DNA of 64,000 nucleotides from Rhodococcus sovatensis (GTDB lineage Bacteria > Actinomycetota > Actinomycetes > Mycobacteriales > Mycobacteriaceae), in contig NZ_CP147846.1 of the NCBI RefSeq assembly GCF_037327425.1, positions 2,604,963-2,668,962 on the forward strand, read 5' to 3'. This document shows, piece after piece, positions 29,806-53,994 of the stretch. How positions within the stretch are numbered: the first letter of the stretch is position 1; every line of letters begins with the position of its first letter. Position numbers and translations under genes: made by a program. Below the pieces are notes generated by a model. The model was not told where the DNA came from and ran no database searches. It saw nothing but the letters and a program-made list of their open reading frames with translations.

Positions 29806-30870
29806 TTGACCGAACAGTCTTCTGTGCGCACCGCAGCCGTCACGCTGGCCGTCGGAGCGCTCGTCTTGGTTGCCGGGTGCTCGGGAGGCTCGACAGCCAG
29901 CGACAACGCGTCGACGATCGTCCGCAGCACGACCAACATCGCCGGTGCCGGCGTGGTGGGCAACGACCGCGAGACCGTCGGACTGTGCCCAGACATGGCA
30001 CCGATGGATCCGACCGGCGTCGAGGGCTCGATCCGTCCGGTCGGCCACAGTGAAGGCATCACCGAGGTTCCGGCCGATCCGATGCGGGTGGTCGTACTGG
30101 ATCCGGCGGCACTCGATGCGACATGCGCCCTTGGTGTGTGGGAGCGGGTCGTGGGCGCCTCCACGCTGAACCCCTTCTTCCGAGGCGACGGCGACCAGGA
30201 GCTGTACCTCGGCACCGGAATCGCGGAGATCCCCACCGTCGGGACGGTCGGTGCGCCCGACATCGATGCGATCGTCGGCCTCGAGCCCGACCTCATCATC
30301 GGCTCGGATTCCCTGGGGTCCGAGCTGTACGACTCCCTGACCGATATCGCCCCGACCGTGTTCACCTCCGCCGACGACGGCTGGAAAGGTGCGTTCCTGC
30401 AATCAGCCGCCGCCCTCGGCCGCGGAGGCACTGCCTTCGAGGAGTTGGCTCGCTTCAGCGCCGACGCCCAGCAGGTCGGCCGGGATGTCAACGCGAACCA
30501 GACTCAGGCATCCGTCGTTCGATTCCTTCCGGACTCGATCGTGTCCGACAGCCGCTCGTCCTTTGCAGGCGAAGTACTCGACGAGATCGGCGTGCAGCGC
30601 CCCCCGTCACAACGCGACGCTGCAACTGTGGTTCCCGCCGACGACCTCGCAGGCGCCGAAGGCGACATCGTCTACGTACGATTCGACGGAGACGACGGCG
30701 AAAGCTACGGCCGAAGTGTCATGACGAGCGACGCGTGGGAGGACCTGGGCTCGGCGAAGGACGGTCGCATCTTCGTCGTGAACGACACCGTGTGGTCCGG
30801 CAGCGGAGTCATGGCAGCGAGAGCAATCCTCGCGGACGTGACCAACTCGCTCAACGCCTACGTTTCCTGA
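29806..30870 (+). CDS. fecB: Iron-siderophore ABC transporter substrate-binding lipoprotein
   Basis: TTG start; signal peptide with lipobox LVAGCSG; class 8 periplasmic binding-protein fold (Rv3044-like). Confidence 0.85.
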   Translation: MTEQSSVRTAAVTLAVGALVLVAGCSGGSTASDNASTIVRSTTNIAGAGVVGNDRETVGLCPDMAPMDPTGVEGSIRPVGHSEGITEVPADPMRVVVLDPAALDATCALGVWERVVGASTLNPFFRGDGDQELYLGTGIAEIPTVGTVGAPDIDAIVGLEPDLIIGSDSLGSELYDSLTDIAPTVFTSADDGWKGAFLQSAAALGRGGTAFEELARFSADAQQVGRDVNANQTQASVVRFLPDSIVSDSRSSFAGEVLDEIGVQRPPSQRDAATVVPADDLAGAEGDIVYVRFDGDDGESYGRSVMTSDAWEDLGSAKDGRIFVVNDTVWSGSGVMAARAILADVTNSLNAYVS

Positions 30871-30871
30871 C

Positions 30872-31345
30872 ATGCCGATCCCCGAATTCGTTCTGGCACT
30901 TCGCAGCAAGGTCGGCACGTCACCTCTGTGGCTCTCCGGGGTCAGCGCAGTGATCGTCGGTGACGACGGCCGGATACTCCTGACCCGTCGCCGCGACAAC
31001 GGCAAGTGGGCCGTAGTGTCCGGGATCCTCGAACCCGGTGAGGAACCCGGGCCCGCGGCGTTGCGCGAGATCAGCGAAGAGACCGGCATCGAAGCCGAAC
31101 TGGTGCGACTGACCAGCGTCGACGTCACCGACAAGATCACCTACCCGAACGGCGACGTCGCTCAATATCTGGACATCACGTTCCTGGCGCGGCACCTATC
31201 GGGCACCGCCGTCGTATCGGACGACGAGAATCTGGCGGTCGAATGGTTCGCCGTCGACGCTCTGCCCGACAACCTCGCCGACACCTCACGTCTGCGTATC
31301 GAGCACGCGCTCAGTGGCGTACCCGGGGCGTGGTTCCGCCGCTGA
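30872..31345 (+). CDS. NUDIX hydrolase (MutT-like)
   Basis: Nudix box GILEPGEEPGPAALREISEETGI. Confidence 0.8.
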   Translation: MPIPEFVLALRSKVGTSPLWLSGVSAVIVGDDGRILLTRRRDNGKWAVVSGILEPGEEPGPAALREISEETGIEAELVRLTSVDVTDKITYPNGDVAQYLDITFLARHLSGTAVVSDDENLAVEWFAVDALPDNLADTSRLRIEHALSGVPGAWFRR

Positions 31346-31371
31346 TCGGGAGCCCGAGGCGGTTGCACTCC

Positions 31372-31560
31372 CCCATTTCGGTGACCGACTGTCTACTTCG
31401 GTCACCTGGCGGGACCGAATGTCTACTTCAGTCACTCTGAGTGCGCGAATGTCTGTTTCGGTCACCTGGCGGGACCGAATGTCTACTTCAGTCACTCTGA
31501 GTGCGCGAATGTCTGTTTCGGTCACCTGTGGGCCAGCGAACGACTCATTCGGTCACCCAG
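31372..31560. repeat. Phased direct-repeat array: three 60-bp units, equal to six ~30-bp sub-repeats
   Basis: The 60-mers at 31381-31440, 31441-31500 and 31501-31560 are near-identical; copy 2 is identical to copy 1 from position 31390, and the third copy degenerates in its second half. The core GAATGTCT-NN-TTC-N-GTCAC recurs at 31386, 31416, 31447, 31476, 31507 and 31538. Confidence 0.95.
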
Positions 31561-31573
31561 GCGAGCCGAAAAT

Positions 31574-31595
31574 GTGATATCACTTTAGTATCACC
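31574..31595 (+). promoter_or_regulatory. Palindromic operator/promoter element upstream of the SPFH gene
   Basis: Perfect palindrome GTGATATCAC, then TTTAGTATCACC containing a TAGTAT -10-like hexamer, about 20 bp before the strong RBS GAGAGGGAGG. Confidence 0.4.
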
Positions 31596-31613
31596 ATCGA
31601 GAGGGAGGTTCAC

Positions 31614-32387
31614 ATGTCCGCACCCGCAACCGTCGCCGAGAAGCCAACGGGTACCCCAACCATCACAATCGCCGAACGGCCCGGGTGGGATCTGCCCGGA
31701 TGGTCGATGCTCGGCGCAGGCCTCGTGCTGTTCCTCGGAGGTATCGCCGCATTCGTGGTCGGCCTGATTTTCACCATTGTCGTCGCGATGGTCGTCGGCG
31801 TCGTGCTGTTCGTCGCGTCGCTTCCAGTCCTGGCCGGCCTGACGCTCGTGCAGCCGAATCAGGCTCGCGTGCTTCAACTTCTAGGGAGTTCGTACAGTGG
31901 CACCCTCCGCACACCCGGATTGCGGTGGACGAATCCGCTGACGTACCGCAAGGCGATCTCGACCCGGATCCGCAATCACGAGACCGCCCAGTCCACCGGC
32001 AGCTACCCCTACGATGCAGAGGATCGAATGTCGTTGCGCGAGAACGCCGACGAGATCACCGGGGCAATGTCCGAGGAGGTGCACGCCAGGGTTCGCGCCG
32101 CAGGTGTCGAGGTGATCGAGACCAGAATCAACCGTCTCGCGTACGCACCCGAGATCGCCCAGGCCATGCTGCGTCGTCAGCAGGCGGGCGCGGTCATTGC
32201 CGCTCGTCGACAGATCGTCGAGGGCGCCGTCGGCATGGTGGATATGGCCCTGGCGAAGCTGGAAGAGAAGCACGTCGTCGAACTCGACGAAGAACGCAAG
32301 GCCACGATGGTCTCGAACCTACTCGTCGTGCTGTGTAGCGACCGCGACACACAGCCCGTGGTGAATGCCGGATCGCTGTACCAGTGA
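31614..32387 (+). CDS. SPFH/band-7 (stomatin-prohibitin-like) membrane protein
   Basis: ATG at 31614 with SD GAGGGAGG. Two N-terminal transmembrane helices followed by an SPFH core ([30 protein letters not shown]) and coiled coil. Confidence 0.7.
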
Positions 32388-32390
32388 CCC

Positions 32391-32588
32391 ATGGCTGCCG
32401 ATCGTAAGAAACTTCTGCTTCGGCTGGACCCAGCGGTGCACGACGCCCTTGCCCGCTGGGCCGCCGACGATCTCCGCAGCACCAATGCGCAGATCGAATT
32501 CCTGCTTCGCCGCGCGTTGGCCGAGCACGGACGAATGCCGAAGAACGCGGACAACATGCGCAAACAGGGACGTCCGCCGAGCTCCTGA
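32391..32588 (+). CDS. Ribbon-helix-helix (Arc/MetJ/CopG-like) small DNA-binding protein
   Basis: 65 aa; [36 protein letters not shown] is a typical RHH beta-strand plus two helices. Starts 3 bp after the SPFH stop. Confidence 0.65.
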
Positions 32589-32629
32589 GTGCTCGGCAGG
32601 CGTCCCTGCCCGTGAATATCGAGGCGCTT

Positions 32630-33685
<1,056 letters not shown>

Positions 33686-49550: not shown

Positions 49551-49623
49551 TGGAGCTAAGGGGACTCGAACCCCTGACCCCCACACTGCCAGTGTGGTGC
49601 GCTACCAGCTGCGCCATAGCCCC
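49551..49623 (-). tRNA. tRNA-Ala (anticodon GGC)
   Basis: Cloverleaf GGGGCTA-TG-GCGC-AGCTGGTA-GCGC-A-CCACA-CTGGCAG-TGTGG-GGGTC-AGGGG-TTCGAGT-CCCCT-TAGCTCC-A. G3:U70 Ala identity pair. CCA is not encoded. Confidence 0.9.
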
Positions 49624-53539: not shown

Positions 53540-53544
53540 TTTCG

Positions 53545-53912
53545 GTGGAGCTGCCGGGAATCGAACCCGGGTCCTCCGCTGTATCACCAGGGCTTCTCCG
53601 TGTGCAGTCTGCTATGCCTCTACTTGGATCTCCTGATCTCGCAGACAAGCCAGGATGACGATCCCAGCCACTGTTTGATGTTCCTCATCACTCCGTGGCC
53701 GAGTGAATCGGTAAGCCCTCTAGCTGATGCCAGTACCCGGACCGAGGGCGAGCCCGGACTGACAGACACGCAGTCGCTACTTAGGCAGCGAGTGCGTAGT
53801 CGCGCTGATTGGAATCGGCGCTTATATGTTTGCGATGACGCTTACGGTGGTCTCTCGCCTGCACCGACACGCTTCCCCTGACTCAACATACAGAGTCGAA
53901 ACCGTTCAGCCC
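53545..53912 (-). ncRNA. ssrA: tmRNA (ssrA)
   Basis: 5' GGGGCTGAACGGTTTCGAC...; tag reading frame GCC GAT TCC AAT CAG CGC GAC TAC GCA CTC GCT GCC TAA = ADSNQRDYALAA*; 3' tRNA-like end GGGTTCGATTCCCGGCAGCTCCACC. Confidence 0.9.
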
Positions 53913-53994
53913 CGTATGTTCCCCAGCACTTTGCCGGGGCTTGTAAGTGTAACGCGTCCACCGAGCAGAATCATCCCGTTATTCGGCGCGTGTT

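What the first reader, a model, noticed from the sequence alone, without database searches (positions are those of the whole stretch)
31571..32588. Self-contained SPFH membrane protein plus ribbon-helix-helix module with palindromic operator and unusually strong translation signals
An SPFH/band-7 protein (2 N-terminal transmembrane helices) is followed 3 bp later by a 65-aa RHH DNA-binding protein. The pair is preceded by the perfect palindrome GTGATATCAC and a second half-site GTATCAC overlapping a TAGTAT -10-like box. It also carries one of the strongest Shine-Dalgarno sequences in the window (GAGAGGGAGG). The interval is locally AT-rich relative to the 65-68% GC background. This looks like an autoregulated two-gene cassette; SPFH proteins scaffold membrane microdomains and are recurrent partners in diverse membrane-associated systems. 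Together with the upstream repeat array it forms an operon-like unit (repeats, operator, membrane scaffold, small DNA binder) whose function is not evident from the flanking housekeeping genes.
Basis: partly seen in the sequence, partly recalled or inferred. Interest (0 to 1): 0.6.

Follow-up and report, generated by a model that had tools for sequence, protein, structure and literature searches.

The report
SPFH membrane scaffold with its own repressor
This is one copy of a two-gene operon found across many bacterial phyla: a stomatin-like membrane scaffold protein followed by a small Arc-type DNA-binding protein, with a nearly invariant palindromic DNA site at the promoter that the small protein most likely binds. 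In this strain the scaffold gene has lost 48 codons of its core.

Summary
The two ORFs, the palindrome, the second half-site, the 3-nt gap and the strong Shine-Dalgarno are all real. Two claims fail. The interval is not AT-rich (63.1% GC against 63.0% for the window). The 30-bp repeat array is specific to one clade and is not part of the conserved unit.

It removes 48 near-invariant core residues. The closest relatives (~92% DNA identity) have the full 305-307 aa protein.

Comparative evidence strongly supports an autoregulated cassette:
- An RHH homologue lies directly downstream of the SPFH gene in 79 of 80 loci from at least seven phyla, and also in Deinococcus, Bacillus and Bacteroidales.
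- No third gene is conserved, and the flanking genes differ between genera.
- Exact GTGATATCAC occurs 42 times in 27 kb of upstream DNA and once in 636 kb of background.
- The consensus is the 16-bp palindrome AAAGTGATATCACTTT.
- Operator layout co-varies with the type of RHH tail.
- SPFH homologues that lack the RHH (Listeria, Enterococcus, Vibrio) lack the boxes.

I found no paper describing this pair. The most likely mechanism is Arc-like negative autoregulation of a stomatin-like scaffold. The scaffold's cargo and any signal it responds to are unknown.

The parts
31571..31586 (.). Operator: 16-bp near-palindrome AATGTGATATCACTTT. The perfect 10-bp core GTGATATCAC is at 31574-31583.
   Evidence: Sequence; single exact match in the window; inverted repeat I11. 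The consensus over 62 loci is aAAaGTGATATCACttt. Exact core: 42 in 26,931 upstream positions against 1 in 636,170 background positions.
31589..31594 (+). Second TATCAC box, 11 bp (one helical turn) downstream of the TATCAC in the palindrome.
   Evidence: Identical in L001 and L002; TATCAA in the closest relatives. An 11-bp spacing of TATCA boxes is seen 16 times upstream and once in background.
31586..31591 (+). -10-like hexamer TAGTAT (TANNNT), overlapped by the second box. The promoter is inferred; there is no transcription-start data.
   Evidence: A conserved T-A lies 6-7 nt after the palindrome in 53-55 of 62 loci. The sigma-70 consensus scan found no promoter here, so this rests on inference.
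31600..31609 (+). Shine-Dalgarno GAGAGGGAGG, 4 nt before the ATG.
   Evidence: Strongest anti-SD duplex of 1294 candidate starts. Conserved in L001 and L002.
31614..32387 (+). SPFH/Band-7 gene, 257 aa, with two N-terminal hydrophobic helices. It is an in-frame deletion allele of a 305-aa protein.
   Evidence: 100% identical to the Rhodococcus sovatensis protein P0001.
31993..31994 (+). Deletion junction. Exactly 144 nt (48 codons) are missing relative to every relative. This removes orthologue residues 127-174.
   Evidence: Protein alignment A1. DNA alignments. The orthologue model places strands 127-130 and 136-147 and helix 157-178 there.
32391..32588 (+). Arc-type ribbon-helix-helix protein, 65 aa, with a basic GRP-containing tail. 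Probably translationally coupled to the SPFH gene (3-nt gap, no Shine-Dalgarno of its own).
   Evidence: Profile hit to P22 Arc. hhalign probability 82%, E 1.1e-5. Pfam RHH_5 in 15 of 26 and Arc in 9 of 26 family members. Gap distribution.
32595..32610 (.). Small GC hairpin GGCAGG-cgtc-CCTGCC between the convergent RHH and nrdF genes. A possible bidirectional terminator (inference only).
   Evidence: Read from the sequence. Not called by the terminator scan, which requires a T-run.
31381..31570 (+). 30-bp tandem array of about 6 units with a 60-bp higher-order period. It is adjacent to the conserved module but not part of it.
   Evidence: Absent in L001 and L002. Present in L089, L090 and L092, and one contig is 60 nt shorter.

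Best explanation
The locus is a self-contained bicistronic operon that is widespread in bacteria.

Gene 1 encodes a stomatin-like SPFH membrane scaffold. It has an N-terminal two-helix membrane anchor, an SPFH alpha/beta domain, a long oligomerisation helix and a conserved C-terminus.

Gene 2 is separated by 3 nt here and overlaps gene 1 by 4 nt in many genomes. It encodes an Arc-type ribbon-helix-helix (RHH) protein.

The RHH most likely binds as a dimer, or a dimer of dimers, to TGATATCA-type boxes that abut or overlap the -10 region of the operon's own promoter. Here these are the 16-bp near-palindrome at 31571-31586 and a second TATCAC box 11 bp downstream that overlaps TAGTAT. Binding would repress transcription. 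This would hold the level of the scaffold within bounds, while translational coupling would fix the scaffold-to-repressor ratio.

In Actinomycetota and Chloroflexota the RHH carries a [RKP]GRP (AT-hook-like) tail at a fixed distance from helix B, and the operator is a single palindrome flanked by AAA/TTT. In other phyla the tail motif is missing and the operator is two or three boxes 11 bp apart.

In this strain (Rhodococcus sovatensis) a recent exact 144-nt in-frame deletion removed two beta-strands and most of the first helix of the SPFH core. The scaffold is therefore probably non-functional, while the operator, ribosome-binding site and repressor remain intact.

Shown: gene-pair conservation, operator conservation, covariation between operator and RHH tail, the deletion, and the fold assignments. 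Inferred: that the RHH binds this operator, that binding represses, the promoter position, and the cytoplasmic orientation of the SPFH domain. Unknown: the cargo or partner of the scaffold and any input signal.
For: Pair conservation:
- RHH lies directly downstream on the same strand in 79 of 80 SPFH loci. These come from Actinomycetota, Chloroflexota, Gammaproteobacteria, Acidobacteriota, Bacteroidota, Cyanobacteria and Verrucomicrobiota.
- The pair is also present in Deinococcus, Bacillus thuringiensis, Parabacteroides and Prevotella records, annotated as 'Arc family DNA-binding protein', 'HicB family antitoxin' or 'hypothetical'.
- Starting from the RHH side, Band_7 lies directly upstream in every place examined, in unrelated flanking contexts.
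- No third gene is conserved.
- The gap between the genes is -4 nt in 17, at most 10 nt in 35 and at most 30 nt in 64 of 79 loci.

Operator:
- Exact GTGATATCAC occurs 42 times in upstream DNA and once in 636 kb of background. 62 of 80 loci match with up to 1 mismatch.
- 77 of 79 loci have at least one TGATATCA box with up to 1 mismatch.
- The consensus is aAAaGTGATATCACtttGcTAg.
- Boxes show 11-bp phasing.
- In Gram-negative loci the layout is TTGACT, 17-18 nt, then TATCAT, with the box overlapping the -10.
- Between Rhodococcus species whose SPFH proteins are about 76% identical, the 44 nt from the operator to the ATG are almost invariant. The rest of the intergenic region has diverged.

Link between the RHH and the operator:
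- 54 of 57 RHHs with a GRP tail have the extended single palindrome and only 3 have tandem boxes. 18 of 22 RHHs without the tail motif have tandem boxes.
- SPFH homologues without an RHH (Listeria, Enterococcus, distant Vibrio) have no boxes.

Folds:
- The RHH family profile matches P22 Arc over the strand and both helices: E 1.3e-4 and hhalign probability 82%, E 1.1e-5.
- The model of the full-length orthologue matches human stomatin (E 8.5e-12), then HflK/C, prohibitin, erlin, flotillin and QmcA.

Deletion.
Against: - No experiment or transcription-start data exist. The simple sigma-70 scan finds no promoter at the window locus.
- The window RHH reaches no Pfam gathering threshold.
- The monomer AlphaFold model does not show the N-terminal beta-strand, and its fold search was uninformative.
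- One locus (Kutzneria, L015) keeps a CTGATATCAC box but has no RHH. The box can therefore persist, at least for a time, without the regulator.
- The covariation between tail type and operator layout is confounded with phylogeny, because the tail-positive RHHs are essentially Actinomycetota and Chloroflexota.
- A plain autorepressor does not obviously explain why the RHH (about 75-85% identical across actinobacterial orders) is more conserved than the scaffold (about 50%).
Confidence: 0.62

Rival explanations
1. Feedback by sequestration, or a toxin-antitoxin-like circuit. The RHH binds the operator and also binds the SPFH protein through its conserved C-terminal tail. The assembly state or abundance of the membrane scaffold would then titrate or co-repress the regulator, as toxins do in type II systems or as PspA does with PspF. 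The operon would report on membrane or scaffold state rather than merely limiting its own expression.
For: - Tight or overlapping gene spacing implies fixed stoichiometry.
- The RHH has a short conserved tail beyond the DNA-binding fold, the architecture of RHH antitoxins. Several sources already label orthologues 'HicB family antitoxin' or 'type II antitoxin'.
- The RHH is unusually conserved for a simple autorepressor.
- On one Deinococcus plasmid the pair sits among AbiE, Fic/AbrB and ImmA/IrrE modules and an IS element.
- If the hydrophobic hairpin leaves both protein termini on the cytoplasmic side, the SPFH domain would be accessible to a cytosolic RHH (inference).
Against:
- SPFH is not a known toxin fold. 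Neither protein matches any PADLOC defence or toxin-antitoxin model.
- The chromosomal position is stable within genera, which is unlike typical mobile toxin-antitoxin loci. Examples: the same fecB-NUDIX-SPFH-RHH-nrdF synteny across Rhodococcus species, and one synteny across 15-18 Streptomyces loci.
- The conserved tail motif ([RKP]GRP) looks like a DNA minor-groove AT-hook rather than a protein-binding peptide, and it co-varies with the DNA site.
- The conserved SPFH C-terminal motif is kept in Listeria, which has no RHH.
Confidence: 0.2
2. The palindrome is the site of some other regulator, or is simply a conserved core-promoter element (an extended -10, TGnTATCAT/C). The RHH then acts elsewhere, for example on other genes or on a process at the membrane.
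For: - GTGATATCAT reads as a near-perfect extended -10 (TG-n-TATCAT) placed 17-18 nt after TTGACT in the Gram-negative loci.
- The Kutzneria locus keeps the box without an RHH.
Against: - A bare -10 element does not need two-fold symmetry, a 16-bp palindromic extension, or repetition at 11-bp intervals.
- The RHH is the only DNA-binding protein that co-occurs with the box across phyla.
- Boxes are absent where the RHH is absent.
- Operator layout tracks the RHH tail type.
- There are no further boxes in the 64-kb window or in 636 kb of flanking DNA beyond chance.
Confidence: 0.1
3. The 48-codon gap in the SPFH gene is an assembly or sequencing artefact, and the strain really has a normal 305-aa protein.
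For: The deletion is seen in a single genome only (P0001, one member, one contig). All other family members seen, including relatives about 92% identical at the DNA level, are full length.
Against: - The gap is exactly 144 nt, in frame, with unique non-repetitive flanks and no repeat that could collapse.
- It lies in a 6.0-Mb contig.
- Assembly errors of this size normally involve repeats.
Confidence: 0.08

Closest known systems
Stomatin / QmcA-type SPFH scaffolds (SPFH1) and other SPFH cage formers (HflK/C, prohibitin, flotillin, erlin)
   Same: The full-length orthologue has a Pfam Band_7 match over positions 3-173 of 176 (83 bits). It has an N-terminal hydrophobic anchor, an SPFH alpha/beta domain and a long C-terminal helix. 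Foldseek gives human stomatin as the best hit (E 8.5e-12), followed by HflK/C, prohibitin, erlin, flotillin and QmcA.
   Different: - Sequence identity to solved structures is only about 15%, and phmmer finds no PDB hit.
- No NCBIfam equivalog matches: hflK scores 25.7 bits against a cut-off of 159.
- No NfeD partner or any other conserved neighbour except the RHH. Hinderhofer et al. 2009 (PMC2636767) report NfeD partners only for SPFH1, 2 and 5, and describe subfamilies 6-12 as small and undocumented.
- The copy in this window lacks 48 core residues.
Phage P22 Arc repressor and the Arc/MetJ/CopG ribbon-helix-helix superfamily
   Same: - The family profile aligns to Arc across the beta-strand, helix A, the RS-x-N turn and helix B.
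- Pfam Arc and RHH_5 hit many family members.
- The protein is small with no ligand domain, and the operator is made of short symmetric boxes at the promoter.
- The 11-bp centre-to-centre spacing of boxes matches what I recall for the two Arc dimers on the arc operator. This is from memory and was not tested.
   Different: - The operator sequence (TGATATCA) is unrelated to the Arc operator.
- The regulator is dedicated to a chromosomal membrane-scaffold gene rather than a phage immunity region.
- It has an extra basic tail with a fixed [RKP]GRP motif in Actinomycetota and Chloroflexota.
- The window protein itself is below every Pfam cut-off.
Omega repressor of plasmid pSM19035 (an RHH that binds heptad repeats)
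   Same: From memory, omega binds repeated 7-bp units 5'-WATCACW-3' in direct or inverted orientation. The boxes here (TATCACT, TATCACC, and the inverted pair in GTGATATCAC) fit that heptad. This is a lead only.
   Different: - The boxes here are spaced 11 bp apart or fused into one palindrome, not arranged as contiguous heptads.
- No significant sequence match to omega appeared in the PDB profile search.
- Omega controls plasmid copy number, partition and a toxin-antitoxin system, not an SPFH gene.
Type II toxin-antitoxin modules with RHH antitoxins in reverse gene order (higBA, hicAB style)
   Same: A two-gene operon that is tightly spaced or overlapping, with a small RHH second gene carrying a short tail and a palindromic operator at its own promoter. 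Some databases name orthologues 'antitoxin'.
   Different: - The first gene is a 305-aa membrane scaffold, not a known toxin.
- There are no PADLOC hits.
- The locus is syntenic within genera.
- Both proteins are under strong purifying selection: 29 synonymous against 4 non-synonymous codon changes for SPFH and 6 against 2 for the RHH, compared with the nearest relative.

Membership tests
SPFH / Band 7 (PF01145) | Profile match above the curated cut-off | tested here: met
   The window protein scores 32.4 bits against a cut-off of 23.6, but only over profile positions 113-170 of 176. The full-length orthologue P0004 scores 83.1 bits over positions 3-173.
SPFH / Band 7 (PF01145) | Complete SPFH alpha/beta core domain | tested here: not met
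   The window protein lacks orthologue residues 127-174. These are near-invariant across the family. They form strands 127-130 and 136-147 and most of helix 157-178 in the model. Orthologues meet this feature.
SPFH / Band 7 (PF01145) | N-terminal membrane anchor followed by a long C-terminal oligomerisation helix | tested here: met
   In the orthologue model, hydrophobic helices span 29-53 and 56-74 and a long helix spans 227-266. The same segments are present in the window protein.
SPFH / Band 7 (PF01145) | Fold similarity to solved SPFH proteins | tested here: met
   For the orthologue model, Foldseek against the PDB gives stomatin at 8.5e-12, with HflK/C, prohibitin, erlin, flotillin and QmcA all at probability 1.00. 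Model confidence is moderate (pLDDT 67).
SPFH / Band 7 (PF01145) | Assembly into a ring or cage on the membrane | not testable with these tools
   This needs cryo-EM, native PAGE or multimer modelling.
NfeD-partnered SPFH operons (SPFH1/2/5, Hinderhofer 2009) | An adjacent NfeD-family gene in the operon | tested here: not met
   Clustering of neighbours across 81 loci finds no conserved partner other than the RHH. The window's neighbours are a NUDIX gene and nrdF.
Ribbon-helix-helix (Arc/MetJ/CopG) DNA-binding proteins | Sequence-profile similarity to RHH families | tested here: met
   The family profile against the PDB hits Arc at E 1.3e-4. hhalign against P22 Arc gives probability 82%, E 1.1e-5 over 47 columns. 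Pfam RHH_5 hits 15 of 26 members (best 3.1e-6) and Arc hits 9 of 26 (best 5.9e-6). The window protein alone is below threshold (RHH_5 18.6 bits against 26).
Ribbon-helix-helix (Arc/MetJ/CopG) DNA-binding proteins | Beta-strand, helix A, tight turn, helix B topology | tested here: inconclusive
   The AlphaFold monomer gives helices 14-26 and 32-45 at pLDDT about 80. It models residues 2-10 as a low-confidence helix rather than a strand, and the fold search was uninformative. The strand forms only in the dimer, which could not be modelled. The invariant R29-S30-x-N32 turn aligns with Arc's R-S-V-N.
Ribbon-helix-helix (Arc/MetJ/CopG) DNA-binding proteins | Binds short repeated or symmetric boxes at the regulated promoter | not testable with these tools
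   Indirect support only: conserved TGATATCA boxes, 11-bp phasing, and covariation with the RHH tail. EMSA or footprinting is needed.
Type II toxin-antitoxin system | A partner protein with a recognised toxin fold or toxic activity | tested here: not met
   The partner is an SPFH scaffold. There are no PADLOC matches for either protein or for the full-length orthologue. Toxicity itself was not tested.
Type II toxin-antitoxin system | An antitoxin with a DNA-binding domain plus a toxin-binding tail, in a tightly coupled two-gene operon with its own operator | tested here: inconclusive
   The architecture fits. However, the tail motif resembles an AT-hook and co-varies with the DNA site. No protein-protein data exist.

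The most novel reading that the evidence does not exclude
The SPFH-RHH pair is an uncharacterised circuit found across bacteria for sensing membrane state. In this reading the Arc-type repressor is captured or released by the stomatin-like scaffold assembly, so that transcription from the deeply conserved TGATATCA operator reports on the scaffold's assembly or on membrane stress. That would make it a minimal analogue of the PspA/PspF or toxin-antitoxin 'conditional cooperativity' logic, built on an SPFH cage. The exceptional conservation of the RHH and its operator across at least 8 phyla would then reflect a dual constraint: the RHH must bind both the DNA and the scaffold.
Probability: 0.18. 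Interest if true: 0.75.

Novelty: new variant of a known kind. Interest (0 to 1): 0.55.

Why it matters
Most bacterial SPFH proteins still have no known function. The only well-known genetic partners are NfeD proteins and FtsH.

This analysis defines a large SPFH subfamily whose constant partner is a dedicated Arc-type regulator. The operator is almost unchanged from Actinomycetota to Gammaproteobacteria, Bacteroidota, Bacillota and Deinococcota.

That gives three things:
- A directly testable regulatory model, with a defined protein, a defined 16-bp site and two operator layouts.
- A handle for finding the conditions that induce this scaffold.
- A rare case of a transcription factor and its site conserved across phyla, which is useful for studying RHH-DNA recognition and AT-hook assistance.

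The Rhodococcus sovatensis allele is a natural core-deletion mutant. It can be compared with wild-type relatives that are about 92% identical at the DNA level.

Tried and rejected
- AlphaFold monomer of the RHH followed by Foldseek against the PDB gave no meaningful hit. The best E was 4.6. This is expected for an obligate-dimer fold and was not used as evidence.
- phmmer of the full-length SPFH against PDB sequences gave nothing. Only the fold comparison worked.
- NCBIfam has no specific family for either protein.
- PADLOC defence models gave no hits, so I did not pursue a defence-system reading.
- The sigma-70 promoter and terminator scan of 31300-32700 found no promoter. It found only one terminator-like site, on the minus strand inside the SPFH gene, which is within what shuffled sequence gives.
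- An RNA fold of the 268-nt intergenic region, including the repeat array, gave z = -1.2, no better than shuffles. I therefore dropped a structured-RNA or riboswitch reading. Rfam finds nothing in the locus.
- I looked for a conserved third gene. An ABC ATPase family appears in 25 loci, and PadR plus an ABC transporter in about 15 Streptomyces loci. These are lineage-specific or generic, so I rejected them as module components.
- An NrdR-box reading of the palindrome, prompted by the adjacent nrdF, was rejected. nrdF is convergent and its promoter is elsewhere, and the palindrome travels with the SPFH gene in genomes that have no nrd neighbour.
- Literature searches for the palindrome sequence and for SPFH combined with RHH, Arc, HicB or antitoxin found no paper on this pair. 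FlotP of B. anthracis is a different subfamily, SPFH2a with NfeD.
Full report
**What is in the window.**
The window comes from Rhodococcus sovatensis. The SPFH ORF is 100% identical to that species' protein on a 6.0-Mb contig. The local gene order is:
- a fecB-like periplasmic binding protein (29806-30870, +)
- a NUDIX hydrolase (30872-31345, +)
- a 268-nt intergenic region
- the SPFH ORF (31614-32387, +, 257 aa)
- a 65-aa ORF (32391-32588, +)
- convergent nrdF (32630-33652, -) and nrdE

The perfect palindrome GTGATATCAC sits at 31574-31583 and occurs only once in the window. A second TATCAC box lies at 31589-31594, exactly 11 bp after the TATCAC of the palindrome. It overlaps a TANNNT-type hexamer, TAGTAT, at 31586-31591. 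The Shine-Dalgarno GAGAGGGAGG (31600-31609) gives the strongest predicted pairing to the anti-SD among 1294 candidate starts in the window.

- The interval is not AT-rich. It is 63.1% GC against a window mean of 63.0%. Only the intergenic part is lower, at 56%.
- The SPFH protein is not intact. Pfam Band_7 matches only residues 143-200, the last third of the profile. Every homologue is about 305 aa.
- The protein alignment shows a clean gap of 48 residues between S126 and T127. The missing segment, [49 protein letters not shown], is nearly invariant across the family.
- At the DNA level exactly 144 nt are missing at 31993/31994. The junction reads ...CAGTCCA|CCGGCAGC..., with no repeat or real microhomology.
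- Metagenomic and MAG relatives about 92% identical in DNA carry the full-length gene with identical flanking residues. The deletion is therefore specific to this strain or species and is recent.
- Apart from the deletion the gene looks selected. It shows 29 synonymous against 4 non-synonymous codon differences from the nearest relative.
- In an AlphaFold model of a full-length orthologue (pLDDT 67), the lost segment comprises strands 127-130 and 136-147 and most of helix 157-178 of the SPFH core. The scaffold here is therefore probably defective. That last step is an inference.

**The pair is a conserved unit.**
I kept the best 80. They span Actinomycetota, Chloroflexota, Gammaproteobacteria, Acidobacteriota, Bacteroidota, Cyanobacteria, Verrucomicrobiota and others.
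- In 79 of 80 loci a homologue of the 65-aa protein lies immediately downstream on the same strand. The exception is a Kutzneria locus.
- The two genes overlap by 4 nt in 17 loci. They are at most 10 nt apart in 35 and at most 30 nt apart in 64 of 79 loci.
- Annotated records from Deinococcus, Bacillus thuringiensis, Parabacteroides and Prevotella show the same pair. The small gene is variously named 'hypothetical', 'HicB family antitoxin' or 'Arc family DNA-binding protein'.
- Starting from the RHH instead, every place examined has a Band_7 gene directly upstream, in unrelated flanking contexts.
- All-against-all clustering of neighbouring ORFs finds no third conserved gene and no NfeD partner.

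**The operator is conserved across phyla.**
- Exact GTGATATCAC occurs 42 times in the 26,931 positions just upstream of the SPFH genes. It occurs once in the other 636,170 positions of the same loci. 62 of 80 loci match with up to 1 mismatch.
- 77 of 79 loci have at least one TGATATCA box with up to 1 mismatch.
- The consensus over 62 loci is aAAaGTGATATCACtttGcTAg. This is a 16-bp perfect palindrome, AAAGTGAT/ATCACTTT, followed by a conserved TA that fits the start of a -10 hexamer.
- In Gram-negative, Bacillus, Deinococcus and Bacteroidales loci there are two or three boxes. TATCA boxes are 11 bp apart 16 times upstream and once in background.
- In several of those loci the box is itself the -10: TTGACT, 17-18 nt, then TATCAT.
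- Between Rhodococcus species whose SPFH proteins are only about 76% identical, the 44 nt from the operator to the ATG are almost invariant. The rest of the intergenic region is unalignable. This is a classic phylogenetic footprint.

**Why the RHH is the likely binder.**
- The family profile aligns to P22 Arc across the strand, helix A, the R-S-x-N turn and helix B. The PDB profile search gives E 1.3e-4 and hhalign gives probability 82%, E 1.1e-5.
- 15 of 26 diverse members hit Pfam RHH_5 and 9 of 26 hit Pfam Arc. The window protein alone stays below threshold.
- It is the only DNA-binding protein that travels with the box.
- SPFH homologues that lack it (Listeria, Enterococcus, a distant Vibrio plasmid family) have no boxes.
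- The DNA site co-varies with the protein. 57 of 79 RHHs carry a [RKP]GRP motif exactly 10 residues after helix B. Of these, 54 have the single extended palindrome and only 3 have tandem boxes. Of the 22 RHHs without the motif, 18 have tandem boxes.
- An R-G-R-P core is the AT-hook motif (general knowledge), and the extended palindrome is flanked by AAA/TTT. The tail may therefore substitute for a second box. This is an inference, and the association is confounded with phylogeny.

**What the scaffold resembles.**
The model of the full-length orthologue has two hydrophobic N-terminal helices (29-53 and 56-74), an SPFH domain, and a long helix (227-266). Its best structural match is human stomatin (E 8.5e-12), followed by HflK/C, prohibitin, erlin, flotillin and QmcA, at about 15% identity. 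No NCBIfam equivalog, PADLOC model or PDB sequence match exists. The 2009 survey of prokaryotic SPFH proteins lists NfeD partners only for subfamilies 1, 2 and 5. It calls subfamilies 6-12 small and undocumented (PMC2636767). I found no paper on an SPFH-RHH pair or on this operator.

**The repeat array.**
The 30-bp array (31381-31570; 60-bp higher-order unit, 96% matches) is absent from R. fascians-group loci with identical synteny. There the intergenic region is 101 nt rather than 268 nt. The array is present in the closest clade, and one contig there is 60 nt shorter. It is a clade-specific minisatellite inserted upstream of the conserved promoter, not part of the module. Its RNA fold is no better than shuffles (z = -1.2).

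**Mechanism and verdict.**
The best-supported reading (confidence about 0.6) is Arc-like negative autoregulation of a bicistronic, translationally coupled operon that encodes a stomatin-like membrane scaffold. In this strain the scaffold is crippled by a recent core deletion. The main rival (about 0.2) adds a protein-protein feedback between the scaffold and the RHH. What the scaffold organises remains unknown.

The finding is real and its central interpretation holds. It is best classed as a new variant of known kinds: an SPFH operon with a dedicated RHH in place of NfeD. It is of moderate interest, mainly because of how widely the pair occurs and how deeply the operator is conserved.

Noticed in passing
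window 31381-31570: A 30-bp tandem array of about 6 units with a 60-bp higher-order repeat at 96% identity. Each unit holds an imperfect 7-bp inverted repeat (GACCGAA-N7-TTCGGTC). The first copy forms a perfect 9-bp stem (GGTGACCGA / TCGGTCACC) just after the NUDIX gene. The array is present in the closest relatives, where one contig is 60 nt shorter, as in a VNTR. It is absent from R. fascians-group loci. Unit variants differ between genomes in a concerted way (TCTACTTC here, TCTGTTTC in relatives). Its function is unknown, and the RNA fold is not significant.
   Followed up: partly
window 53543-53913 (-) and 49551-49623 (-): A tmRNA gene (Rfam RF00023, 148.6 bits) and a tRNA gene. These are the only Rfam matches in the window.
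   Followed up: no
RHH proteins of loci L001-L054 and others; window 32391-32588, residues 59-62: 57 of 79 RHH partners carry an AT-hook-like [RKP]GRP motif exactly 10 residues after helix B. The window protein has the weaker QGRP, and its nearest Rhodococcus relatives have PGRP.
   Followed up: partly
L085 (Enterococcus 'phage' OR846655.1) and L086 (P. aeruginosa plasmid pHN232-2, NZ_CP151545.1): The region upstream of the SPFH gene is essentially the same sequence in both records. The phage records are flagged UNVERIFIED_ORG. The 'Pseudomonas plasmid' and the 'phage' assignments are probably mislabelled Enterococcus-type chromosomal DNA.
   Followed up: no
L019-L053 (Streptomyces loci): In about 15 Streptomyces genomes the SPFH-RHH pair is followed by a PadR-family regulator and an ABC transporter ATPase, and preceded by a long GC-rich ORF. 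This is a genus-specific synteny not seen elsewhere.
   Followed up: partly
L081 (Deinococcus wulumuqiensis plasmid pDrdIV, 31 kb): Here the pair sits between AbiEii/AbiEi and AbrB/Fic toxin-antitoxin modules, an IS5 transposase and an ImmA/IrrE-HTH pair. This is a mobile, defence-island-like context, unlike the chromosomal loci.
   Followed up: no
L015 (Kutzneria sp. CA-103260): This is the only one of the 80 loci without an RHH downstream, yet it keeps a CTGATATCAC box upstream. It may be a recent loss of the regulator.
   Followed up: partly
window 32595-32610: A GC hairpin GGCAGG-cgtc-CCTGCC in the 41-nt gap between the convergent RHH and nrdF genes. It is a candidate bidirectional terminator without a T-run.
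   Followed up: no
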